From NCBI GenBank assembly GCA_018650165.1, contig JABIGM010000003.1, forward strand, positions 1 to 28,601: DNA of 28,601 nt, read 5' to 3'. Positions 3,023 through 24,725 of this stretch are shown one piece after another. Each line of letters starts with the position of its first letter. Position 1 is the stretch's first letter. Source of the stretch: Methanobacteriota archaeon (GTDB lineage: Archaea > Thermoplasmatota > Poseidoniia > Poseidoniales > Poseidoniaceae). The translations under genes were made by a program, and so were the position numbers. The notes under the pieces are model-generated. The model was given only the letters and a program-made list of their open reading frames with translations. It was not told where the DNA came from and did no database searches.

Positions 3023-3645
3023 TCGAAATAGCAGGGTGTGGCCTTACGGGAATCTCCTGTGCCTTGGAATTGTTAGAAAAAAAACTACCAGTTACAATTT
3101 ACGAATCAAGGCAAGAAATCGGCAATCCAACTAGATCACCAGGAATAATCAAAACTTTAGATTCGAATTTAATCAAACCAACCGTTGCAAAACCAACAAA
3201 ATACGGCTGGGCGTTACGTAGAGAATGGCTTGAGAAGTCATTAGCTCAAAAAGTTGTAGATTTAGGTGGAATTATTAGATTAAAAACCAAAGCACCACCA
3301 AATTCAGTAGATTGCACCGGAGGGAAATCTTCTGCTCCAGGATGGCCTGTTGCCGGAACGAAAGAAAATCTTGTAAAATGGAGGGGCGGCATTGTGATTA
3401 AAACAGATATACCAAGCGAATTTATTCTAAATAAAATGAGCGAAGATAGATTTTGTTTCGAAAGAGGAGACGAACTAGTAGAATGTTGGATTAGAGGGGA
3501 ACTACCTCGTCCAAAACAAGGATGGTTGGAAATTTTAGAAGGCGAACATCCTTACAACGTGGATGAGATTTGGGCTGACGAATCAATAGCAGAAGGTAAG
3601 AAAACCGCCCAAAACATCATTCAATCCCGGCTGGAGGTTTCATAA
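3019..3645 (+). CDS. Short (208 aa) FAD-dependent oxidoreductase, geranylgeranyl-reductase-like
   Basis: ATGA overlap with the ferredoxin stop; Rossmann IAGCGLTG; YESRQEIGNPTRSPG, GWALRREWLEKSLAQ and VDCTGGKS resemble GGR segments, but the protein is about half the usual length. Confidence 0.7.
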   Translation: MIEIAGCGLTGISCALELLEKKLPVTIYESRQEIGNPTRSPGIIKTLDSNLIKPTVAKPTKYGWALRREWLEKSLAQKVVDLGGIIRLKTKAPPNSVDCTGGKSSAPGWPVAGTKENLVKWRGGIVIKTDIPSEFILNKMSEDRFCFERGDELVECWIRGELPRPKQGWLEILEGEHPYNVDEIWADESIAEGKKTAQNIIQSRLEVS

Positions 3646-3646
3646 C

Positions 3647-4465
3647 ATGCTTCCAGATGAAGGGCTACTCAACTATATTGTTGACAGATCACATGGGTGC
3701 AGACACGTTACACTAATCGACCCCGGAAAACAAAGCGCAGAAGAAGCCACAAAACGCTCGATTGCAGCAATATCGGCAGGGTCGCGGATGATATTCATTG
3801 GTGGTTCAACAGATACACCTGATGAGGTAGTACACGAAACTTGTAAAATGATACAAGAAGCATTAGAATTGCAAATATTCGCATCAAGCCAAGACCCTGC
3901 ATCGGACGAGGATATATGGAGAGTACCAGTCGTATTATTCCCAGGAGGGGCGCACGCACTATCTCCAGCGGCAGATGGAATAACTTTCATGATGCTAATG
4001 AATTCTCAAATCCGTAGATTTCTTATCGAAGAGCAACTAAAAGGCGCCCCCTATTTACACAAATTCGGTGTAGAAGCAATACCTACTGGATATCTTGTAT
4101 TTTCACCCGGTGGCAAAGTTGGAGAAGTAGGGGAAGCAGATTTGATTGAACCCACACAAACAGAATTAGTAAATTCCTATGCGTTAACAGCCAAGATGTA
4201 TGGATTCCAAATTCTCTATCTAGAGGCTGGTAGCGGGGCTAGCACGCAAGTAGATTCCAAATGTATCGAGGCTGCAAGAGAAGTGGACGAAATTTGTTTA
4301 TTTGTAGGAGGGGGGATTCGTTCTTCCGAACAAGCAGCAAAAGCCGCAAACGCAGGAGCAAATTGGATTGTTACAGGAACACTTACTGAAGACGCAGCAA
4401 ATCTTCAAGAACTTAGTGAAAGAATCTCTAAAGTTGTAGCCGGAGCTCAATCTTCTTCATCATAA
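3647..4465 (+). CDS. Geranylgeranylglyceryl phosphate (GGGP) synthase, group II
   Basis: HVTLIDP, IGGS, LFPGG, TGYLV, YLEAGSG and VGGGIRS motifs of the GGGPS TIM barrel; starts 1 nt after the upstream stop. Confidence 0.92.
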   Translation: MLPDEGLLNYIVDRSHGCRHVTLIDPGKQSAEEATKRSIAAISAGSRMIFIGGSTDTPDEVVHETCKMIQEALELQIFASSQDPASDEDIWRVPVVLFPGGAHALSPAADGITFMMLMNSQIRRFLIEEQLKGAPYLHKFGVEAIPTGYLVFSPGGKVGEVGEADLIEPTQTELVNSYALTAKMYGFQILYLEAGSGASTQVDSKCIEAAREVDEICLFVGGGIRSSEQAAKAANAGANWIVTGTLTEDAANLQELSERISKVVAGAQSSSS

Positions 4466-5739
4466 AGAACAGGATCTCCTGTTCCACCAGGCGACTCTGG
4501 GCGAGTACTTCCATCAACATCCATTCCTTTTTCAATAACTTCAAGGGCGGAATCAAGGTCTATTGTTCCACCTTCTGCTAACGTTTGCATATCGTCTGCA
4601 GTTGGCGTAGAAATTTTTCTTTCTACATCTGGAGTATTGGCATAAACCTCTTTCTTCAGTTCTCTTTCATCATGACTTCTAACTAAAGATAGCGAATCTG
4701 CAAAGACCCGACCTACAACTTCACGAGTACGTTCAGAGCGCTTTGCACCATCTAATTCATGAACAGCAGTATCTCGTTGAGATTCCAACTCTCTCACTTC
4801 AGACGTACGGTCTGTCAATGCAGCCTCTAAATCACCAATTGTAAGGGACATTTGCTGAACCCTTTCATCTCTTTCAAAGACATCATTATGTAATCGGCGT
4901 TCACGCCTTCTAAGGGATTCATATTCTCTATTTCTTTCAAGCAACCGGCGTTTTAATTCTTCAATTTGCTCAACCAAATAATCATGTTCAGCTGAAACAG
5001 AACGGGGACCCTGCATCACCCGTTCTAGTTGCTCTTCTAATTCACCCAGCCTCTTATCTCTAGCATCTAACAAACCACGTAATCTATCAGCAATATCTCT
5101 GAGACGCTGTCGCTCTTCTTCTAAAGCGTCATTAGCAGCCTTTTCAGCACTAAGTTCACCAGATAGAATATCTGCCTGAGATTTTAATGCACGAACTTCA
5201 TCAGCCGTTACACTTGTTAAACCAGCATCGGCAGCTCTTTCCAAAGCCGCAACCATTTGGGCCATACGGCCTTCCATTTCTCCAATAACATCATCCTGTT
5301 GAGTTGTTAGTTCTCTAAGTTGCATAGTTTCATTTTCTAATGAAGCACGCTCTTCAGCAGAAAGGCCCGATTTACTTTCACCCAACTCTTTTCTTGTATC
5401 TTCAAGTAAACGCTCTAGATGAACAACCCTCGCCCCGGCTTCTTCGAGATGGCCTTCTGTAGCCCGTAGTTGCGCAACCTCTGGTGCAACTTCGTCCTTA
5501 CGCTCTGCTAAATCTAATTCAAGAACACGCAGACGTTGCTTAGAAGTTACAAGATCTTCGTTTCGATCAGCCAACTCTTGCCAGGCAACCAAGACCTCTT
5601 CGACCAGTTGATCAACAGGGTAAGCGCGCAACATTCCTTCAAGGGCTGCGCGCTCATCTCCCGTACTATCTGAGATGCGATGAATACCACCTGAGGTTGA
5701 TCTACCGAGCGTCATTGCACACATTCGTGCAACAACCAT
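4447..5739 (-). CDS. Long coiled-coil protein (430 aa) with acidic tail, function unknown
   Basis: Long heptad-like E/L/R/A-rich helical region; AGGTTGA SD-like site before ATG 5739; 50 nt downstream of the actin gene on the same strand; 3' end overlaps GGGPS by 19 nt. Confidence 0.85.
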   Translation of the reverse strand: MVVARMCAMTLGRSTSGGIHRISDSTGDERAALEGMLRAYPVDQLVEEVLVAWQELADRNEDLVTSKQRLRVLELDLAERKDEVAPEVAQLRATEGHLEEAGARVVHLERLLEDTRKELGESKSGLSAEERASLENETMQLRELTTQQDDVIGEMEGRMAQMVAALERAADAGLTSVTADEVRALKSQADILSGELSAEKAANDALEEERQRLRDIADRLRGLLDARDKRLGELEEQLERVMQGPRSVSAEHDYLVEQIEELKRRLLERNREYESLRRRERRLHNDVFERDERVQQMSLTIGDLEAALTDRTSEVRELESQRDTAVHELDGAKRSERTREVVGRVFADSLSLVRSHDERELKKEVYANTPDVERKISTPTADDMQTLAEGGTIDLDSALEVIEKGMDVDGSTRPESPGGTGDPVLYDEED

Positions 5740-5789
5740 TATTCAACCTTTCATTGGTAGATGGCCCTAAAGGGCCCATTACAAGACCC

Positions 5790-6794
5790 TTAGTTGATAG
5801 CGGTGTATTGCTCATCAGGCATGTCTTGGGCAAGTGCCATAGCGCCTGTAGCGACCTTTTCAATAGGATCTTCAACACAAACTACAGTGACATCACCAAT
5901 ATCGGCAATTTCGTTTGCGATGGCGTCAGCAACTCCTTCGATTAAAGAGCCGCCGCCAGATAGAATGATATTGTTACGAAGAATTGGTTGATATTCAGGG
6001 TCAGCAGTTGCAACAATTGACTTAATTGCTCCACCCACCTTTCCAACAATCATTGCGCATGCCGACTTGACCAAATCACCAATATCGACTTCTTGCTTCT
6101 TTCCGTCTACAGATAATTCAACGACATGTTCGCGGTCATCCCCACTCAAGTACGAGAATTCTTCTTTCCACTTTCGCACCATGTCCTTAGTAACCTGAGC
6201 GCCAGTATACTTTTTCTTTACAAGAGTCATTAATTGGATATCAATCCAATCTCCTGCTTCTTGGATAGTTAGCTGATCCTCTTCACTTGGGAACACACCG
6301 TAAAGGCGAGCAATGTCTGTTGTACCTGCGCCAATATCAACACATATCGAACCAGCGATTTCACCAATTCCATATGCAGTAGCGAATGGTTCTGTTACAA
6401 CCATGATGGCATTTACTTGTCCACGTAGTGTTGCGACCAAGTTGCTTTTGTCAGTAAAAGATACATGTGATGGTGAGCATATTACACCAAACACTTCATC
6501 ATATTCTTCAGGACCTACGGTTTCGATTAGGTGAGTTACAAACGCCTTTGCAGCAGCCAGGTTTGCTTCATCATCTTGAGCAACACCAGCGGCCATTGGA
6601 CGATAGAGGTTACATGCTAATTTGTTCTTTAACGCATCATTTCCAAATAATACATCGCGCTTAAGCATATTTCTAGCAATGGGGTCTTTAGGTCGGCCAA
6701 CCACTGTTTCGATAGTTTCTATTGTTCCAGCACTACTTGCAATGGTAGATTGGTAGGTTCCCAAATCAATTCCAACATAGAGTCTCTCGCTCAT
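5790..6794 (-). CDS. Actin-like ATPase, MamK/salactin-like (MreB/Mbl superfamily)
   Basis: 334 aa from ATG 6794 (SD GGGTGAG). Phosphate-1 GIDLGT, connect-1 VTEPF, phosphate-2 VDIGAGTTD, adenosine LSGGGS; segments VVGRPKDPI, PSEEDQLTI and PEYQPILRNNII resemble MamK rather than MreB. Confidence 0.88.
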   Translation of the reverse strand: MSERLYVGIDLGTYQSTIASSAGTIETIETVVGRPKDPIARNMLKRDVLFGNDALKNKLACNLYRPMAAGVAQDDEANLAAAKAFVTHLIETVGPEEYDEVFGVICSPSHVSFTDKSNLVATLRGQVNAIMVVTEPFATAYGIGEIAGSICVDIGAGTTDIARLYGVFPSEEDQLTIQEAGDWIDIQLMTLVKKKYTGAQVTKDMVRKWKEEFSYLSGDDREHVVELSVDGKKQEVDIGDLVKSACAMIVGKVGGAIKSIVATADPEYQPILRNNIILSGGGSLIEGVADAIANEIADIGDVTVVCVEDPIEKVATGAMALAQDMPDEQYTAIN

Positions 6795-6871
6795 TTTTCT
6801 CTCACCCTTGTCCTTCGGACATAATGGCCATGGAGTCACCCGCCTTGAATGTTCACTCGCGCTTAAGCGGT

Positions 6872-8926
6872 CTATTCTTCTTCTCTAAAAGGCGGAAGAA
6901 CACCTTCAAACACTCGTTTTTCAAAACCTCTAAACATAATACCGGCAGCCACAATTGCACCAATAACGATTCCACCAACACCCCACAATAATACCCTATT
7001 ATGCTCAGTTTCAGAAGCATCTTCAATTACTGGCGCGACCCCCTCCTTTTCTAACATAGGAGATTCCCACCAAATCGTAAAATTTCCAGTTTTAACAATA
7101 GAAATATTTTGAGAAGTCCAAATCGAGGAATTGTCATCAACAGCAACAATTTCAAAAAACCAGTCATGACGATTAATTGGCCTAGGAACCAATTCTTTAG
7201 AAAAATCAACATAACACAAAACAGTGGTTATATTTACACTAACAAAAGCACAATCCCCAAGGTCTACTGAAAAATTTGAATTGACCAACCTCATAACCGT
7301 TACAAAACCATCGTATTCTAAATCATATACTGTGACATTAATTGAAACATTATTTGTAAAGTTCTCCCCTTCTAAAGATCCCGTATTTATCACAACCACC
7401 GGCCCTTCATTTTGCACTAGGTCCGTTATCCCCGTTGCAGCAAGCCCAAAACCAAGCATAGAGCCATTAATTCCCAAATACCCATTTTTGGTTTCTGAAA
7501 TTATTGTTTTTGCTACAACCTCGATTTCTATCCACTCAACCCCAACCAAGGAACTTTCAGGTATTCGAATCATCACCGTTGTCTCATTAGAAGAATTGAT
7601 TTCTAATGGATGCTTCATAGATTCATACCAAAACGTGGAAAAACCAGAATTTGAAAGTTGATCATCCACCGCAAATCTTCCGTCAGAGGTTTTTACAACT
7701 AACCGAAGGTCGTCAATTTCCTGACCCATCGGCCGCGCATTATAGGACATAACAACTTCAACATCTTCACCAGCTATTGGCTTGAATAGATGACTCCACG
7801 ACTCATTTTCTGACAAGAAAGGACCAGCAGCACCAGAACCATTCCAAGGATTAGATTTTAGAGACTCTAAATCTCCTCCGCGGGATTGAATAATTTCCAT
7901 CCAATCTTCCACAGCGTAGGAATCGTGAACAAACACCCCACCTGTAAACGACTCAAGGCTTGGGCGGCCATAACCCTGTATGGAGTCGGGGTCAGCGCCT
8001 GTAAGTGGTTCAGCAGACACTGCTAGCAAAGACCTTAACAAAGGCGCAGATGGAGTAAAACCTTCATTTTCCTGAACCATTTGTTGTAATAATGCAGTAA
8101 ACGAAGCAGCCATGGGCGCGGCCATAGAAGTGCCAGTCATAGAATAGGATCCATTGTTCATACTATCTTGAATTCCATCCGCCCTTGCAGATAAAACATC
8201 AACCCCTGGGGCGGAAATCAACGTACCCCTTCGTCCATTCACATCCGGCCCGTGAGAACTAGAATGCCATATACTTCCATTTTCCTCAGAGTCACTAGCT
8301 GCTACTGAAACTACATTGTATGCATTTGAAGGCTCCAACATCATACCTCCATTTCCTGGCGCTACGAAAACCAAGGACCATGGGTTTTCAATAGTCCATT
8401 CATCAATAAGTCTACTTCTATCAGTATAATTGATAGAATTGTCTCCCCAAGACCAAGAGTTGATTACAGCACCATTGGACGATGCTTCAGCCAACAAGTC
8501 AGTAACATTTTCTGGCGGAGCCCACCCCGTAGAATCAACAATATCCTGTACAATCAATTTCACACCACTAGACATCGAACGGATATCATCGCCGCCTTCT
8601 AAAGGGTCACAAGCAAGAATTCCCGCAACATGCGTTCCGTGTTTGAATTGCTGATGGCCTTGGTTGTCCCAGTCATCGATTGAATCATTCAGTAATATCA
8701 CCTTTCTATGCGAATTTCCCGGAACCCCAACCTCCCCGGTTGAGTTTCTAAAACAATCATGGTCTAGGTCTATTCCAGTATCAGCGACTGCAATTACAAC
8801 ACCACTCCCATTTAATGCCCCCAAACCCCCTCCCTCTTCTTCAATATCCATTATATTGGACGAACTAGAAGCGCTAGACTGCGAGGCTACCATGAGCAGG
8901 AATACCAAAACCACTGGAACCCGCAT
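6872..8926 (-). CDS. Secreted, C-terminally membrane-anchored S8 subtilisin-like serine peptidase (KP-43-like subfamily)
   Basis: Signal peptide; catalytic motifs VADTG, HGTHVAG, oxyanion PGNG and GTSMAAP; HRKV, QDIV and QGYGR segments are KP-43-like; C-terminal TM helix LLWGVGGIVIGAIVAAGIMF. Confidence 0.92.
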   Translation of the reverse strand: MRVPVVLVFLLMVASQSSASSSSNIMDIEEEGGGLGALNGSGVVIAVADTGIDLDHDCFRNSTGEVGVPGNSHRKVILLNDSIDDWDNQGHQQFKHGTHVAGILACDPLEGGDDIRSMSSGVKLIVQDIVDSTGWAPPENVTDLLAEASSNGAVINSWSWGDNSINYTDRSRLIDEWTIENPWSLVFVAPGNGGMMLEPSNAYNVVSVAASDSEENGSIWHSSSHGPDVNGRRGTLISAPGVDVLSARADGIQDSMNNGSYSMTGTSMAAPMAASFTALLQQMVQENEGFTPSAPLLRSLLAVSAEPLTGADPDSIQGYGRPSLESFTGGVFVHDSYAVEDWMEIIQSRGGDLESLKSNPWNGSGAAGPFLSENESWSHLFKPIAGEDVEVVMSYNARPMGQEIDDLRLVVKTSDGRFAVDDQLSNSGFSTFWYESMKHPLEINSSNETTVMIRIPESSLVGVEWIEIEVVAKTIISETKNGYLGINGSMLGFGLAATGITDLVQNEGPVVVINTGSLEGENFTNNVSINVTVYDLEYDGFVTVMRLVNSNFSVDLGDCAFVSVNITTVLCYVDFSKELVPRPINRHDWFFEIVAVDDNSSIWTSQNISIVKTGNFTIWWESPMLEKEGVAPVIEDASETEHNRVLLWGVGGIVIGAIVAAGIMFRGFEKRVFEGVLPPFREEE

Positions 8927-9016
8927 AAACTACCTGAAAACCACATCACGATTGAACCTTCAGGCAAAAGGCTCCGCGCCAGCGCGTTTAAGACACATTT
9001 ACAGGTCGGCGGAAAT

Positions 9017-9289
9017 ATGCAAGCCTTCCGTATCTCCGGTACTGCCCCATTTGGCAGCCAACGACAGAAGTTCAGTATCGACTTAGTTGCAGACTCATCG
9101 GACGACGCAGAACACCGCTGTTATTCCATCATTGGATCACGCCACAAAGCAAACCGCCGAACCATTATGATCGAATCTGTTTCTGAAATAGACCCACGTA
9201 CATCTTCCGAACCACGAATTCTAAACGCATTCCGTGATCAAATTGCTGCAGCCGGTGGTATAATCGCCCCAGATGCCGAGGAAGAGTGA
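9017..9289 (+). CDS. rpl18a: 50S ribosomal protein L18Ae (LX)
   Basis: FRISG...AEHRCYSIIGSRHKANRRTIMIESVSEI matches L18a/LX; upstream of pfdA-ftsY as in the conserved archaeal operon. Confidence 0.88.
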   Translation: MQAFRISGTAPFGSQRQKFSIDLVADSSDDAEHRCYSIIGSRHKANRRTIMIESVSEIDPRTSSEPRILNAFRDQIAAAGGIIAPDAEEE

Positions 9290-9344
9290 ACTTCAACAAT
9301 CGTTGGGTTCTTGACGGGGGGGCAACTCCCATTGGGTGAGAGGC

Positions 9345-9845
9345 ATGGTTGATTCAAACGAACTTCAACGAATGGCCCGCCTGGTTGACATGAACAGGCA
9401 ACGACTTGAAGAGATTCAAATTCAAATAGAAAGAATCGAAGCAGTTCAACTCGAACATGACGATACAAGGCAGGCACTAAATGCATTATCTACAGGTTCA
9501 AGTGGACACATACCACTCGGCGCAGGAGTAATGGTTCCCATCCCCAAGGATGCAACAACAATTGTCGATTTTGGTAGTGGTGTTTTTGGTGAAAGCACAC
9601 CCGAAAACGCCTCCGAAATTGTGACTAAGCGCCTTTCAGACTTAACTGAATTAAAGATACAATTCGAAGCAGATGCAGCAACCCTCACACAAAGAATCGA
9701 GGAACTTGCCTCAACCTTTGAACGGGCCGCCAAAGAAATCACTACCGAAAAAGAGACAGTTGTAGAAGAAACGCCAACTGTTGCAGAACCCCAAACACGC
9801 CGAAGGCGGAGAGGCGTTGGAAGCGAATTAACGCTGGACGACTAG
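9345..9845 (+). CDS. pfdA: Prefoldin subunit alpha
   Basis: ATG 9345 after GGGTGAG; coiled coil - beta hairpins (IPLGAGVMV, IVDFGSGVFGE) - coiled coil; rplX-pfdA-ftsY context. Confidence 0.9.
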   Translation: MVDSNELQRMARLVDMNRQRLEEIQIQIERIEAVQLEHDDTRQALNALSTGSSGHIPLGAGVMVPIPKDATTIVDFGSGVFGESTPENASEIVTKRLSDLTELKIQFEADAATLTQRIEELASTFERAAKEITTEKETVVEETPTVAEPQTRRRRRGVGSELTLDD

Positions 9846-9853
9846 GTGAGGAC

Positions 9854-11224
9854 ATGGGGCTATTCGACAAATTTCGTAAAAAGGTGCAAGATGCAGCATC
9901 GGAAGCGGACACAGATTCATTATCTGTAGAAGCGGGCACAGAAGAAGCCTTAGAAGCAATCAATCAACACCAAGAAATTGAAATCGCCCAACCAGAAGAA
10001 TGGGAGGAATTGGACGAATCTGAAGAATTAGTTTTACCCACCCAGGCCGATGATGATTGGGAAGAATGGGAGGAAGACGACGACGACTTCGTCTTACCAA
10101 CCAAATTATCTCGCAAGGAAAAGAAAATATTGGCAAAACAATCCAAACGCGAAGCAACACAACGTAAAACTCACGAAAAAGAACTCAAGAAAAGAGGCGG
10201 TAAAGAAGTTAGTCGCCTTTCTGGAGCTAAGGTAGACCTTCACATGATGCGCACCACAACAGGACGGCAATTAGTGGAAGTCAAAGCGGCTCCAACCGGC
10301 GGAATTGGGTCTAAAGAAGAAGATGGATTTACCATCGACCTTGGTGGCGGGGTTGTAGAAACCGGCGGCCGAGTAATCAAACAAGGAGACGCACTATCCA
10401 ATCTATTGGAAGAACTCGAGTGGATTATGCTGGAATCTGACATTTCATCAGATGCAGTTTCTACTGTAATGGCCGCCCTTCAGAAAAACCTCGTCGGGCA
10501 ACGTCTGCGAAAAGGAGCAGACTTGTCCAAAGTTCTCGAAGCATCCCTAAAGAGGGCGCTACGCAGTATTTTACAGGCTGGATATTGGGACTTTTTCGAA
10601 AGTATTCAGAAATTTATAGACTCAGGAGATACGCCTGTTGTAATAATGTTTGTCGGCGTGAACGGAACTGGGAAAACAACCACGGTCGCTAAAATCGCTC
10701 ACCTATTACAGGAGCGCGGCAAAACAGTAATTGCGGCAGCAGGCGATACCTTCAGGGCGGGCGCCATAGAGCAACTCGAATCACATTGTGAGAAACTAAA
10801 CATCCGCTGTATCTCTTCTCAAAGAGGGGGAGATTCGGCCGCAATTGCTAGAGACGCCATCGAATCCGCTTCTGCAAAAGGCATTGACGTTGTGCTTGTT
10901 GATACCGCAGGCAGGATGCAAAACAAATCGAATTTAATGGCAGAACTTGAGAAGGTTAGAAGGGTTGCAAACCCCCACCTAACGCTCTTTGTTGGTGACG
11001 CTTTAGCTGGAAATGATGCTGTAGATCAAGCGCGCATATTCCAAGAATTATTGAAATTCGATGGAGCAGTTCTAACTAAATTAGATACCGATGCCAAAGG
11101 CGGCGCGGGCCTTTCGATAGCCCACGCCACCGGTAGACCGATTGTTCTATGCGGGGTTGGCCAAGAGTACAATGATCTGATACAATTTGATCCAGATTGG
11201 TTGTTGGAGCAATTATTCGAATGA
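9854..11224 (+). CDS. ftsY: Signal recognition particle receptor FtsY
   Basis: Acidic N-terminal region; GVNGTGKTTT, DTFRAGA, DTAGR, TKLDTDAKGG and GQEYNDL motifs; SD AGGTGAGG. Confidence 0.97.
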   Translation: MGLFDKFRKKVQDAASEADTDSLSVEAGTEEALEAINQHQEIEIAQPEEWEELDESEELVLPTQADDDWEEWEEDDDDFVLPTKLSRKEKKILAKQSKREATQRKTHEKELKKRGGKEVSRLSGAKVDLHMMRTTTGRQLVEVKAAPTGGIGSKEEDGFTIDLGGGVVETGGRVIKQGDALSNLLEELEWIMLESDISSDAVSTVMAALQKNLVGQRLRKGADLSKVLEASLKRALRSILQAGYWDFFESIQKFIDSGDTPVVIMFVGVNGTGKTTTVAKIAHLLQERGKTVIAAAGDTFRAGAIEQLESHCEKLNIRCISSQRGGDSAAIARDAIESASAKGIDVVLVDTAGRMQNKSNLMAELEKVRRVANPHLTLFVGDALAGNDAVDQARIFQELLKFDGAVLTKLDTDAKGGAGLSIAHATGRPIVLCGVGQEYNDLIQFDPDWLLEQLFE

Positions 11225-23045: not shown

Positions 23046-24725
23046 TTATGGCAACTCTTCGATTTGTCCGCAAGCGCCTCTAAGTGTTTCAAGAGCAGCC
23101 TTGTAATCAATATCTTCGCCACTAACCAGTGCCTGTCCTGCCTTCCACACACCAATGGCCGCAGGACTCCAAGCACCACCGCGCTCTCTAGCATCAGAAG
23201 AAAACTGCCACTCTTGACCAGAAGATTTTCCAGAAGCTACTAGCCACGCCCATGCCGAAGCCTCGGCATCGATACCGCCTTTCTTTGAAAGGGCATCTTT
23301 CTCTGCTTTACCAAGTCCATCAACCAACCCTCGAACTGTTAAGTCGTGAATCATTCCAACCGGGCCCGGGATTTTACCTATCTTATATGGGAATTTTTGA
23401 ATTATACCAGCCTTGGATCTTTGAGATTCAATATCTTTTAGGAATTTACCGAAAGCCCGCTTCTTATTACATTGTAATAACCACAATTCTTCCGCCTCCT
23501 CATCCTCAATCCCAATTTGTTTCAATCCATCAAGACCATGATCTTCCCACAACGACGACAACACATCATTACAAGAACTGGCAGATATTTCCAAAGCACT
23601 ACCTTCTCTTTCGTGAACCCCTCCTCTCTGTGAAATACGAATTCCAGAACCGGCAGCAGAAATCATTAATTTTAACGCCAATTCTTTTTCAGCTGCCGAA
23701 CCATTCAATTCTTTGACAGCCCCTTCGGCTGTATCGAACCATTTCTCACCGACAATAAAACCCTCGTCGAGGTGATGTAAAACAGCCATCTTAACTCGTT
23801 TAGCGATGGACCCTTCGTTAAGGGTAAGTCCAATCCACGCATCTAATACGCGGTCTAAAGAATCCCTAGTGGAACTTCTAGTAGCGCCCTCTGGATACCA
23901 AATCGCATCGGGCTCCATAACCGTTGAGAGATTTGGCGGAAGCATGGATAATGCCAGGTCGTGAATAAACGAAGTTTTTCCTTTTACAGTACTCAATTTG
24001 TCAAAACCAATCGCTACTTTATCTCCACTAATGAAATTCATCAATAAGTAACCCTCGCCAGTCATTTCATCCTTTGAAATACTATCAAAATCTAATCCTG
24101 CAGTTGCCCAGATATTTCCTTGGTTTTTGAAATCGAAACGCGAACGAAGTAGGACATCCCCGAGCCACCCATCAGGTATAGTCGGGACGGGCCCACTACA
24201 GACAAAACCTCCACGCCAAGAGAAGAAGAAGTAACCACGGCGCGCATGGTCTTCCCACGGCAGCATCCTAAGAGTTGGCATATGGAAATTTTGAATTCCC
24301 GCTTGGTATGCGACTTTCCCATCGCCTTTACGAACGAAGGATGCCTTACCAAACGATTGGTGACTATAGTCGCCCACCAAAGAAATCTCTTCATCATGAG
24401 CCGCCAACAAAGACCCAGCAAACGCTTTACCAACACCATCACCGCGCTTTGCCATCATTCTTTTCGCAAGCCACCGAGTATCATGGCGCTTATCGAGAAT
24501 TTTACGTAATTCGCGCAGCGTTTTTGTCACAGGATCGGTCCTACCCCATTTCAACTTACCAGTCCACGTCATTGCAGGCAACAATTGTTCCCCTTCTTCG
24601 AGCAACCGATCAAGATTTTTTCTCAAACGCTTTTGAGTATCGGAATTGGCTTGTTTTGTACCACGCATACGCATACGTTGCTGCTTTTTCCCAGGAAATT
24701 CAACTTGAGAAGGACCCGCCATCAA
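23046..24725 (-). CDS. Large hypothetical protein (559 aa)
   Basis: Long ORF with protein-like composition, 24 nt downstream of dph5, abutting the convergent gene; no motif recognised. Confidence 0.8.
   Translation of the reverse strand: MMAGPSQVEFPGKKQQRMRMRGTKQANSDTQKRLRKNLDRLLEEGEQLLPAMTWTGKLKWGRTDPVTKTLRELRKILDKRHDTRWLAKRMMAKRGDGVGKAFAGSLLAAHDEEISLVGDYSHQSFGKASFVRKGDGKVAYQAGIQNFHMPTLRMLPWEDHARRGYFFFSWRGGFVCSGPVPTIPDGWLGDVLLRSRFDFKNQGNIWATAGLDFDSISKDEMTGEGYLLMNFISGDKVAIGFDKLSTVKGKTSFIHDLALSMLPPNLSTVMEPDAIWYPEGATRSSTRDSLDRVLDAWIGLTLNEGSIAKRVKMAVLHHLDEGFIVGEKWFDTAEGAVKELNGSAAEKELALKLMISAAGSGIRISQRGGVHEREGSALEISASSCNDVLSSLWEDHGLDGLKQIGIEDEEAEELWLLQCNKKRAFGKFLKDIESQRSKAGIIQKFPYKIGKIPGPVGMIHDLTVRGLVDGLGKAEKDALSKKGGIDAEASAWAWLVASGKSSGQEWQFSSDARERGGAWSPAAIGVWKAGQALVSGEDIDYKAALETLRGACGQIEELP

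What the first reader, a model, noticed from the sequence alone, without database searches (positions are those of the whole stretch)
4447..6794. MamK/salactin-like actin operonic with a long coiled-coil protein: candidate undescribed archaeal cytoskeletal module
Seen: a 334-aa actin-fold ATPase with intact motifs (GIDLGT, VTEPF including the catalytic Glu, VDIGAGTTD, LSGGGS), followed 50 nt later on the same strand by a 430-aa coiled-coil gene with its own SD. From my recollection of Magnetospirillum MamK, the match extends well beyond generic actin motifs: VVGRPKDPI ~ VVGYPKDVI, VTEPFATAYG ~ VSEPFMVGYG, GVFPSEEDQLTIQEAGDWID ~ GTVPGPEDQVTLTKAGNYLD, KEEFSY ~ KEQFSF, PEYQPILRNNIILSGGGS ~ PEYQATVLQNIVFAGGGS, CVEDP ~ CVKDP, LAQDMP ~ LAEELP. 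Established: MamK positions magnetosomes with an acidic adaptor (MamJ); salactin, a MamK relative in haloarchaea, forms dynamic filaments linked to DNA partitioning. No mreCD or other mam genes occur in the window. Inference: a filament plus adaptor/scaffold pair that positions some cargo (DNA, pole or organelle) in this archaeon.
Basis: partly seen in the sequence, partly recalled or inferred. Interest (0 to 1): 0.88.

Follow-up and report, generated by a model that had tools for sequence, protein, structure and literature searches.

The report
Archaeal MamK-like actin with coiled-coil neighbour
A Marine Group II (Poseidoniales) ocean archaeon carries a filament-type actin related to the bacterial magnetosome actin MamK, next to a lineage-specific coiled-coil rod gene; this is probably an unstudied internal filament system, but binding between the two proteins is not shown.

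Summary
ACT1 (5790-6794, 334 aa) is a full-length actin-fold ATPase. Its best matches are MamK by sequence (PDB 5jyg, E 4e-58; NCBIfam MamK 329 bits) and by fold (5ljv, TM 0.91). It misses the MamK cut-off of 400 bits and sits outside the MamK and BeeR clades. It is not MreB (64-77 bits) or salactin (35 bits).

ACT1 has a sister paralog, ACT2, on another contig, paired with a zinc-ribbon gene. The nearest relatives are bacterial actins with long N-terminal extensions, then actins of other Thermoplasmatota that have a different partner family.

The downstream gene (4447-5739; likely true start 5715, 422 aa) encodes an acidic four-helix coiled-coil rod found only in Poseidoniales. It follows ACT1 in all three families sampled.

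"Operonic" is not supported. A 3'-end hairpin and a generic promoter-like box separate the genes.

Streamlined lineages that lost the actins keep only the N-terminal third of the rod at the same locus. This is the best hint of a functional link, and it is probably one event. Origin proximity, an archaellum link and a private shared motif were not supported.

The scan has reported this pair at least 15 times on other genomes.

The parts
5790..6794 (-). ACT1: 334-aa MamK-like actin-fold ATPase (stop codon included)
   Evidence: Translation. NCBIfam MamK 329 bits, BeeR 205, MreB 64-77, salactin 35. PDB MamK E 4e-58. AF2 model pLDDT 82.7, best fold match MamK filament 5ljv_A, TM 0.91/0.93. 17 orthologs have 80% mean column identity and invariant nucleotide-binding residues.
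6801..6807 (-). GGGTGAG Shine-Dalgarno-like element 7-13 nt before the ACT1 ATG
   Evidence: Sequence. GGTGA peaks genome-wide at -1..-20 from ATGs, 134 against about 28 per bin.
6844..6856 (-). GTGAACATTCAAG: BRE/TATA-like promoter box, about 55 nt upstream of the ACT1 ATG and just after the S8 stop
   Evidence: Conserved upstream of ACT1 in other genera and families. TT[CG]AAG is positionally enriched upstream of genes genome-wide. The extended motif occurs upstream of many unrelated ORFs.
5761..5791 (-). GC-rich hairpin directly after the ACT1 stop codon (terminator-like or 3'-end stabiliser)
   Evidence: Hairpins with lineage-specific stems occur at the same place in most orthologous loci; z was -2.0 to -2.65 in 7 of 12. 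The ungapped consensus fold was weak. GC-rich hairpins are 5-6 times enriched in the 60 nt after stop codons genome-wide.
5741..5753 (-).
   Evidence: The block is conserved upstream of CC in all families even where the ATG inside it is out of frame or followed by a stop. Its position falls in the genome-wide TT[CG]AAG peak at -21..-40.
4447..5739 (-). CC: acidic coiled-coil rod protein. The ORF is 430 aa from ATG 5739; the conserved start is ATG 5715, giving 422 aa
   Evidence: Translation. No Pfam or NCBIfam family above cut-off. AF2 predicts helices 42-125, 128-171, 179-243 and 248-367 with disordered ends. pI 4.7, net charge -37. Homologs were found only in Poseidoniales.
5227..5658 (-). 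CC N-terminal third (residues 28-171): the part kept in actin-less lineages
   Evidence: 149-164-aa ORFs next to PcrB in G036, G038 and G039 match HMM positions about 18-167, E 4e-24 to 6e-17.
4450..5226 (-). CC rear two-thirds (residues 172-430): lost together with the actins in streamlined lineages; candidate actin-related part
   Evidence: It starts at the invariant AGLTS linker.
4864..5010 (-). Near-invariant block, residues 244-292 (GPRSxSAEHDYLVEQ..ELKRRL..RNREYE..RRRER.LH..VF.RDE)
   Evidence: Invariant across three families although the rest of the protein is only 47-65% identical. AF2 pLDDT is about 95 here.

Best explanation
ACT1 is an ATP-hydrolysing, filament-forming actin. It belongs to a Thermoplasmatota/Poseidoniales branch of the broad MamK-like family and has nothing to do with magnetosomes. 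The neighbouring gene encodes a Poseidoniales-specific, acidic coiled-coil rod built of four long helices, probably a dimer. The rod most likely acts as a dedicated partner of ACT1 filaments, bundling, anchoring or regulating them. On this reading it contacts actin through its rear two-thirds, which carry the invariant 244-292 block. Its N-terminal third has a job that does not need actin. The two genes are adjacent and co-oriented, but each has its own promoter-like box, and a 3'-end hairpin separates them. The system is accessory: it is missing from the small-genome lineages of the order. It runs alongside a second, paralogous actin (ACT2) that has its own zinc-ribbon partner gene. Shown: family placement, fold, intact catalytic motifs, order-wide synteny, and the pattern of loss. 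Inferred: polymerisation, binding of the rod to the filament, and separate transcription. Unknown: the cargo or cellular role.
For: MamK-like actin: NCBIfam MamK 329 bits against MreB 64-77 and salactin 35. PDB MamK E 4e-58 over the full length, with E135 aligned to MamK E143. The AF2 model is closest to the MamK filament protomer 5ljv_A, TM 0.91/0.93, rmsd 2.1 A. Nucleotide-binding residues are invariant in 17 orthologs.

Placement (102 rows, BeeR outgroup): ACT1+ACT2 are sisters (100/99). Their sister group is a bacterial N-extended clade (98/93). Next come other Thermoplasmatota actins (93/90). All lie outside the clade scoring above 400 bits for MamK.

Partner: CC directly follows ACT1 in genus-level relatives and in families f1, f2 and f3, at 47-65% CC identity. 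CC has an invariant 49-residue block and invariant linkers.

Correlated loss: lineages lacking ACT1 and ACT2 retain only CC's N-terminal third at the syntenic site.

Analogy within the family: other Thermoplasmatota actins are each followed by a charged helical protein of another family. The bacterial sister clade carries coiled-coil/disordered extensions fused to the actin. MamK works with coiled-coil Mad proteins in Desulfovibrio magneticus RS-1 (PMC12748827). MamK-like actins outside magnetotactic bacteria polymerise: BeeR (PMC11929497) and saltatorellin (10.1101/817700).
Against: No direct evidence of binding exists. The whole neighbourhood is syntenic across the order, so adjacency is weakly informative. 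The correlated loss is probably a single evolutionary event, and S8 was lost with it. G025 keeps ACT1 with no CC downstream, and none was found in that 83%-complete genome. In G004 a 1229-aa surface-protein gene sits between the two genes. A hairpin and a separate promoter-like box argue against tight co-transcription. The apparently shared upstream motif is a generic promoter element, so it does not show co-regulation. ACT1 scores below the curated MamK cut-off (329 against 400).
Confidence: 0.5

Rival explanations
1. Long-standing neighbours only. ACT1 forms filaments on its own. CC is an independent intermediate-filament-like or crescentin-like scaffold, or another coiled-coil protein, whose position beside ACT1 merely reflects the strong gene-order conservation of Poseidoniales.
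For: The neighbourhood from bCASP to FtsY is conserved as a block. Separate promoter-like boxes and a hairpin lie between the genes. ACT1 occurs without an adjacent CC in G025, and a foreign gene is inserted in G004. A truncated CC survives without any actin. The nearest named clusters by language-model features are crescentin rod proteins (0.92, 143 shared features, a lead only). The rod is segmented, with head and tail.
Against: The part of CC lost in actin-less lineages is exactly the most conserved part. Actins elsewhere in this family also carry a helical partner, either next door or fused. The Pfam crescentin rod match is not significant (9.7 bits against a cut-off of 100).
Confidence: 0.3
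2. A chromosome or DNA partition machine of the ParMRC/AlfAB type, placed near a replication origin. The actin would push or pull DNA through the coiled-coil protein acting as adaptor.
For: Actin-plus-adaptor gene pairs are the rule in plasmid partition. Salactin, a MamK relative, affects DNA partitioning under low phosphate (PMC10746226).
Against: CC is very acidic (pI 4.7, net -37) and has no DNA-binding domain hit. In the closed relative G075 the same locus lies more than 400 kb from both orc1/cdc6 genes. In this genome orc1/cdc6 genes are on other contigs. The genes are chromosomal core genes, not on a mobile element. The system is dispensable in whole lineages.
Confidence: 0.07
3. An ordinary MreB-type shape determinant, as public annotations state ('rod shape-determining protein MreB').
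For: Pfam MreB_Mbl is the best Pfam hit (77.8 bits). JGI and NCBI name it MreB.
Against: NCBIfam MreB models score 59-77 bits against cut-offs of 293-515, while MamK scores 329. PDB MreB matches are E 1e-13 against MamK 4e-58. The tree places it in the MamK-like radiation. No mreC/mreD is in the window. Archaea lack the peptidoglycan machinery that MreB guides (established knowledge).
Confidence: 0.03

Closest known systems
MamK of Magnetospirillum (magnetosome actin; NCBIfam NF040964; PDB 5jyg, 5ljv, 5ljw) with its partners MamJ, McaA/McaB, or the coiled-coil Mad20/23/25/26 proteins of Desulfovibrio magneticus RS-1
   Same: Full-length sequence homology (E 4e-58, about one-third identity). 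Same catalytic Glu and phosphate-binding motifs. It is the closest solved fold (TM 0.91). No N-terminal amphipathic helix or extension. An acidic and/or coiled-coil partner is encoded nearby.
   Different: ACT1 scores below the curated family cut-off (329 against 400 bits) and falls in a separate clade. The host is an archaeon. No magnetosome genes are present. The CC protein is unrelated in sequence to MamJ or the Mad proteins. Polymerisation and partner binding are untested.
BeeR (Verrucomicrobiota, PDB 8r2n) and saltatorellin (Saltatorellota): MamK-like actins of non-magnetotactic bacteria
   Same: Members of the wider MamK-like radiation used outside magnetotaxis. Both were shown to polymerise or form filaments, which makes polymerisation of ACT1 likely.
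   Different: The BeeR HMM gives 205 bits against a cut-off of 530. ACT1 lacks BeeR's disordered N-terminal domain. BeeR is the outgroup clade in the tree. No coiled-coil partner is described for either protein.
Salactin (Halobacterium; NF053533, PF25229) and volactin (Haloferax): archaeal actins
   Same: Archaeal, chromosomally encoded actin homologs. MamK is reported as salactin's nearest family (PMC10746226).
   Different: The salactin HMM gives only 34.7 bits (cut-off 400). ACT1 is far closer to bacterial MamK than to salactin, and it has no charged N-terminal tail.
Crenactin with arcadins; ParM-ParR and AlfA-AlfB
   Same: The principle of an actin gene next to a gene for a small or elongated partner that binds the filament.
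   Different: There is no sequence relation. The partition adaptors bind DNA, and arcadin-2 acts through a C-terminal peptide. Neither was shown for CC.
Crescentin and other bacterial coiled-coil-rich (IF-like) proteins, as comparators for CC alone
   Same: A segmented coiled-coil rod with short unstructured head and tail. Crescentin rod clusters are the nearest named clusters by language-model features.
   Different: There is no significant sequence match (Rod_CreS 9.7 bits against 100). No self-assembly data exist. CC occurs only in Poseidoniales.

Membership tests
MamK (NCBIfam NF040964, strict sense) | Whole-protein HMM score at or above the curated cut-off of 400 bits | tested here: not met
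   ACT1 scores 329 bits and ACT2 360 bits. Representatives of true MamK clades score 420-508 bits.
MamK (NCBIfam NF040964, strict sense) | Actin fold with phosphate-1, phosphate-2 and adenosine motifs and the catalytic Glu (MamK E143) | tested here: met
   GIDLGT, VDIGAGTTD and LSGGGS are present. E135 aligns to E143. These residues are invariant in 17 orthologs.
MamK (NCBIfam NF040964, strict sense) | The closest solved structure is MamK | tested here: met
   Foldseek: 5ljv_A TM 0.91/0.93, rmsd 2.1 A, ahead of BeeR, actin and MreB.
MamK (NCBIfam NF040964, strict sense) | Branches inside the clade of magnetosome MamK proteins | tested here: not met
   ACT1/ACT2 form their own clade with bacterial N-extended actins and other Thermoplasmatota actins. 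This clade is separate from the one holding P0166 (508 bits).
MamK (NCBIfam NF040964, strict sense) | Encoded within a magnetosome gene cluster | tested here: not met
   The neighbours are an S8 protease, GGGP synthase, prefoldin, FtsY and others. No mam or mad genes are in the window.
MamK (NCBIfam NF040964, strict sense) | ATP-dependent polymerisation into two-stranded filaments | not testable with these tools
   This needs purified protein or expression with a fluorescent tag.
MreB | MreB HMM above cut-off, with mreC/mreD partners | tested here: not met
   TIGR00904 gives 64 bits (cut-off 365.75) and PRK13927 gives 76.9 (cut-off 293). No mreC/D is in the window.
Salactin | NF053533 above 400 bits; disordered charged N-terminal tail | tested here: not met
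   34.7 bits. Pfam Salactin gives 28.9 bits, just over its 27.1 cut-off but well below MreB_Mbl. ACT1 has no N-terminal tail.
BeeR | NF053558 above 530 bits; 30-50-aa disordered N-terminal domain | tested here: not met
   205 bits. ACT1 begins 7 residues before the first strand.
ParMRC-type partition system | A DNA-binding adaptor protein plus centromere repeats beside the actin gene | tested here: not met
   CC has no DNA-binding domain hit and is strongly acidic. No repeat search for a centromere was run. The locus is far from orc1/cdc6 in a closed relative.
Crescentin / IF-like coiled-coil proteins (for CC) | Rod_CreS profile match; self-assembly into filaments | tested here: not met
   PF19220 gives E 0.52, 9.7 bits against a cut-off of 100. 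Only the architecture resembles these proteins. Self-assembly is not testable here.

The most novel reading that the evidence does not exclude
Thermoplasmatota archaea possess their own branch of MamK-like cytomotive actins that work with interchangeable, lineage-specific partner modules. In Poseidoniales these are a coiled-coil rod for ACT1 and a zinc-ribbon protein for ACT2. In other orders the partner is a third family, in one case embedded in a chemotaxis operon. Together they would be the first cargo- or pole-positioning actin system of archaea, operating in the most abundant planktonic archaea of the surface ocean.
Probability: 0.3. Interest if true: 0.75.

Novelty: new variant of a known kind. 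Interest (0 to 1): 0.6.

Why it matters
Marine Group II archaea are among the most abundant microbes of the surface ocean, and they have never been grown in pure culture. Almost nothing is known of their cell biology. Public databases label this gene 'MreB' or 'hypothetical'.

The family scores, fold and tree place it in a distinct archaeal branch of the MamK-like actins. That branch has two paralogs, each with its own partner gene, and the whole system is missing from the streamlined lineages. This gives archaeal cell biologists a defined, testable system: two small soluble proteins that can be expressed in Haloferax or E. coli.

The finding also widens the known range of MamK-like actins beyond magnetosomes, alongside BeeR and saltatorellin. 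It raises the question of what these filaments position or shape in a tiny planktonic archaeon.

Tried and rejected
1. Complex prediction of ACT1 with full-length CC, each given as an alignment, returned 'no answer' (ipSAE 0.00; controls were not run). This is neither evidence for nor against binding.

2. A Foldseek search of the CC model against the PDB found nothing (best E 7.5, apoA-IV).

3. Pfam and NCBIfam searches on CC and on its N-terminal, central and C-terminal pieces gave only generic coiled-coil noise. The precomputed PF24161 tag could not be reproduced or named with the library on hand.

4. Archaellum link: archaellin genes do not follow the actin's distribution. G026, G028 and G034 have actin but no archaellin; G035 and G040 have archaellin but no actin. 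Rejected for Poseidoniales.

5. Origin proximity: orc1/cdc6 lies at 1.83 Mb and 0.70 Mb in closed genome G075, against ACT1 at 0.185 Mb. In this genome the orc1/cdc6 genes are on contigs C27 and C38. No support.

6. 'Shared private regulatory motif' (a lead from earlier notes): the motif is present upstream of both genes. However, TT[CG]AAG is a genome-wide promoter-position signal, and the extended motif precedes many unrelated genes (52 hits against 29 in shuffles). Rejected as evidence of specific co-regulation.

7. My own first reading of the block before CC, as SD plus start codon or as a 5-codon upstream ORF, was dropped for the same reason.

8. RNAalifold on the ungapped intergenic alignment gave a weak consensus (-0.84 kcal/mol). 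Single-sequence folds and genome-wide statistics were used instead. One DNA alignment used wrong minus-strand coordinates and was discarded.

10. No homology was found between CC and the N-terminal extensions of the bacterial sister-clade actins, the zinc-ribbon partner of ACT2, or the 'family B' partners. No family B homolog was found in this genome.

11. A related-loci scan of genome contigs, run to name the bacterial sister clade, returned only a 40%-identical Parabeggiatoa hit. The clade is called bacterial from gene context only.
Full report
**What is there**

The window is contig C21 of a 1.75-Mb, 80%-complete archaeal genome. Homologs carry the names 'Candidatus Poseidoniaceae/Poseidoniales archaeon', so the organism belongs to Marine Group II. 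Both genes of the finding lie on the minus strand.

ACT1 is 5790-6794, 334 aa from an ATG preceded by GGGTGAG. The second ORF is 4447-5739, 430 aa, and starts 50 nt after the ACT1 stop. Pfam scans of the other window genes show an S8 subtilase upstream, and GGGP synthase, a small flavoprotein and a beta-CASP nuclease downstream. Prefoldin and FtsY lie further upstream of the S8 gene, and the rest of the window holds housekeeping enzymes. There are no mreC/D or magnetosome genes.

**The actin**

- NCBIfam scores are MamK 329 bits (E 3e-98), BeeR 205, MreB models 59-77 and salactin 34.7.
- Pfam offers only MreB_Mbl (77.8 bits), which explains the public 'MreB' label.
- Against solved structures the best sequence match is MamK of Magnetospirillum (5jyg/5ljv, E 4e-58, residues 3-330), then BeeR (3e-35) and MreB (1e-13).
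- An AF2 model (pLDDT 82.7, pTM 0.78) is closest to the MamK filament protomer 5ljv_A (TM 0.91/0.93, rmsd 2.1 A).
- Nucleotide-binding residues are invariant in 17 orthologs.

ACT1 is therefore a MamK-like actin. It scores below NCBI's MamK cut-off of 400 bits.

**Placement**

The genome has a second copy, ACT2 (G000:C37:5138-6163, 44% identical). A search of 1.84 billion representatives gave only 116 clusters at E<=1e-30. I built a careful ML tree of 102 sequences rooted on the BeeR clade. Its main groupings are:

- ACT1+ACT2 are sisters (100/99).
- Their sister group is a clade of 523-1232-aa proteins with the actin at the C-terminus (98/93).
- Next is a clade of actins from other Thermoplasmatota (93/90; joined at 90/88).

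The long proteins are bacterial by gene context: UvrC, D-Ala-D-Ala ligase, Por_Secre_tail and DUF5686. Their N-terminal parts are coiled-coil plus disordered linker. Representatives of the clades that reach the MamK cut-off (420-508 bits) and of BeeR lie elsewhere in the tree. The refutation condition 'branches within ordinary MreB' is not met.

**The coiled-coil protein**

No family reaches any cut-off. AF2 predicts four long helices (42-125, 128-171, 179-243, 248-367), broken at the conserved AGLTS and GPRS linkers, with disordered ends. Heptad positions are well occupied. The protein is very acidic (pI 4.7, net charge -37).

Foldseek finds nothing. The nearest named clusters by language-model features are crescentin rods, which is a lead only. 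Homologs were found only in Poseidoniales. Across three families the protein is 47-65% identical overall, but residues 244-292 are almost invariant.

**Synteny and phyletic pattern**

CC follows ACT1 in the same-genus genomes where the locus is assembled, and in families f1, f2 and f3. The entire block bCASP-DAO-PcrB | CC-ACT1-S8 | Pfd-FtsY is conserved, so adjacency alone is weak evidence.

There are two exceptions. G025 has S8-ACT1 followed by an unrelated convergent gene, and no CC was found in that genome. G004 has a 1229-aa surface-protein gene between ACT1 and CC.

Both actins, CC and ACT2's zinc-ribbon neighbour were not found in the 1.3-1.6-Mb genomes of six genera of f3, which are over 90% complete.

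It is 149-164 aa long and matches only CC's N-terminal third (E 4e-24 to 6e-17). ACT1 and S8 are replaced there by other genes. The rear two-thirds, which hold the invariant block, went with the actins. This is the best indication of a functional link, but it is probably one evolutionary event.

**Are they an operon?**

Right after the ACT1 stop most orthologous loci can form a GC-rich hairpin with lineage-specific stems. The z-score was -2.0 to -2.65 in 7 of 12 loci. The ungapped consensus fold was weak. Genome-wide, such hairpins are 5-6 times enriched in the 60 nt after stop codons.

Next comes a block conserved in all families, TGAAAGGTTGAAT in this window. ATG 5739 lies just after it and is not a conserved start: there is an in-frame TAG in G018 and G024, ATA in G001, and the block is out of frame in other families. 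A similar block, GTGAACATTCAAG, lies about 55 nt upstream of ACT1.

Three genome-wide counts bear on these blocks:

- TT[CG]AAG peaks at -21..-40 from start codons (73 against about 26 per bin).
- GGTGA peaks at -1..-20 (134 against about 28).
- The extended motif precedes many unrelated ORFs (52 hits against 29 in shuffles).

I read these blocks as ordinary BRE/TATA-like promoters. On this reading each gene has its own promoter. CC probably starts at ATG 5715 (422 aa) on a short-leader or leaderless mRNA, and the shared motif is not evidence of private co-regulation. Transcript data could not be obtained.

**Tests of proposed roles**

- Origin or segregation: in the closed relative G075 the same locus is more than 400 kb from both orc1/cdc6 genes. 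In this genome they are on other contigs. CC is acidic and has no DNA-binding domain.
- Archaellum: archaellin presence does not follow the actins.
- Division: two FtsZ genes and a third tubulin-family gene are present, so division probably rests on FtsZ.
- The complex prediction gave no verdict (listed under Tried and rejected only).

**Context from relatives and literature**

In other Thermoplasmatota the actin is followed by a different helical, charged partner family with no Pfam match. In G155 the actin and that partner sit inside CheB-CheA-CheC-CheD-actin-partner-CheC on one strand.

Several published systems are relevant:

- MamK-like actins outside magnetotactic bacteria form filaments: BeeR (PMC11929497) and saltatorellin (10.1101/817700).
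- MamK and coiled-coil Mad proteins form an interaction network in Desulfovibrio magneticus RS-1 (PMC12748827).
- Salactin's nearest family is MamK (PMC10746226).

No paper in the held library describes an actin of MGII/Poseidoniales.

**Verdict**

- Supported: a MamK-like actin with an order-wide, lineage-specific coiled-coil neighbour, undescribed in the literature.
- Not supported: 'operonic', 'salactin-like' and the DNA-partition idea.
- Open: whether the two proteins interact.

I rate 'filament plus dedicated coiled-coil partner' at 0.5, 'neighbours only' at 0.3, a partition system at 0.07 and MreB at 0.03. The finding is a new variant of a known kind (an actin with an elongated partner). 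This scan has already reported the same pair on at least 15 other genomes.

Noticed in passing
L014 (G000:C37) 5138-6163(-) and 6261-7334(-): A second MamK-like actin (ACT2, 341 aa, 44% identical to ACT1) lies directly downstream of a 357-aa protein with N- and C-terminal zinc ribbons. A convergent zinc-ribbon membrane protein sits on the other side. The array IPK-x126-KptA | ZnR-ACT2 | TM-CoaBC is conserved in all three families. The zinc-ribbon gene has exactly ACT2's phyletic pattern.
   Followed up: partly
L037 (G155:C15) 3407-10395(-): In another Thermoplasmatota family the MamK-like actin and its 318-aa partner lie inside a chemotaxis operon, CheB-CheA-CheC-CheD-actin-partner-CheC, all on one strand. 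G198 shows the same actin-partner pair beside a CheA-like gene by sequence inspection.
   Followed up: partly
L033, L034, L035, L037, L038 (gene downstream of each actin): This is a partner family with no Pfam match. Its members are 318-618 aa long, share an N-terminal domain of about 250 aa, and have a charged helical remainder. It follows the actin in five non-Poseidoniales Thermoplasmatota genomes and was not found in this genome.
   Followed up: partly
L032 4160-11326(+) and proteins P0125-P0139: The bacterial sister clade has actins with 190-900-aa N-terminal coiled-coil/disordered extensions. In one contig the long form is followed by a second, short actin, three Roadblock/LC7 proteins and an Arf/Ras-like small GTPase. 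This looks like a polarity module.
   Followed up: partly
protein P0167 (768 aa): A single protein fuses FtsZ (tubulin GTPase plus the FtsZ C-terminal domain) to a MamK-clade actin. It lies inside the strict MamK clade.
   Followed up: no
whole genome G000; examples at window 6844-6856 and 5741-5753: TT[CG]AAG, not TTTAWA, shows the promoter-position peak at -21..-40 from start codons. GGTGA shows a strong Shine-Dalgarno peak. GC-rich hairpins of the CCCC-GTA-GGGG type cluster in the 60 nt after stop codons.
   Followed up: partly
L021 (G004:C26) 3455-7144(-): A 1229-aa repeat-rich surface protein with a C-terminal membrane anchor is inserted on the same strand between ACT1 and CC in one congener.
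   Followed up: no
L039 (G191:C339) 3515-5701(+): In this archaeal genome bin, the gene downstream of the MamK-like actin combines a bacterial DnaA ATPase domain (E 5e-74) with DUF835. The bin has 980 contigs and 3% contamination.
   Followed up: no
relatives, e.g. G001:C44:7893-8033, G015:C29:74543-74686, G018:C2:23506-23646: Small ORFs resembling residues 278-326 of the zinc-ribbon partner of ACT2 (a faint TerB-like stretch) lie about 6-7 kb from the archaellin genes in many same-genus genomes.
   Followed up: no
The orc1/cdc6 genes of this genome are on contigs C27 and C38. In a closed relative with the same local gene order they lie more than 400 kb away. The ORB-like boxes themselves were not examined.
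   Followed up: partly
window 23046-24725(-): A 559-aa ORF has no Pfam family at E<=1e-5.
   Followed up: no
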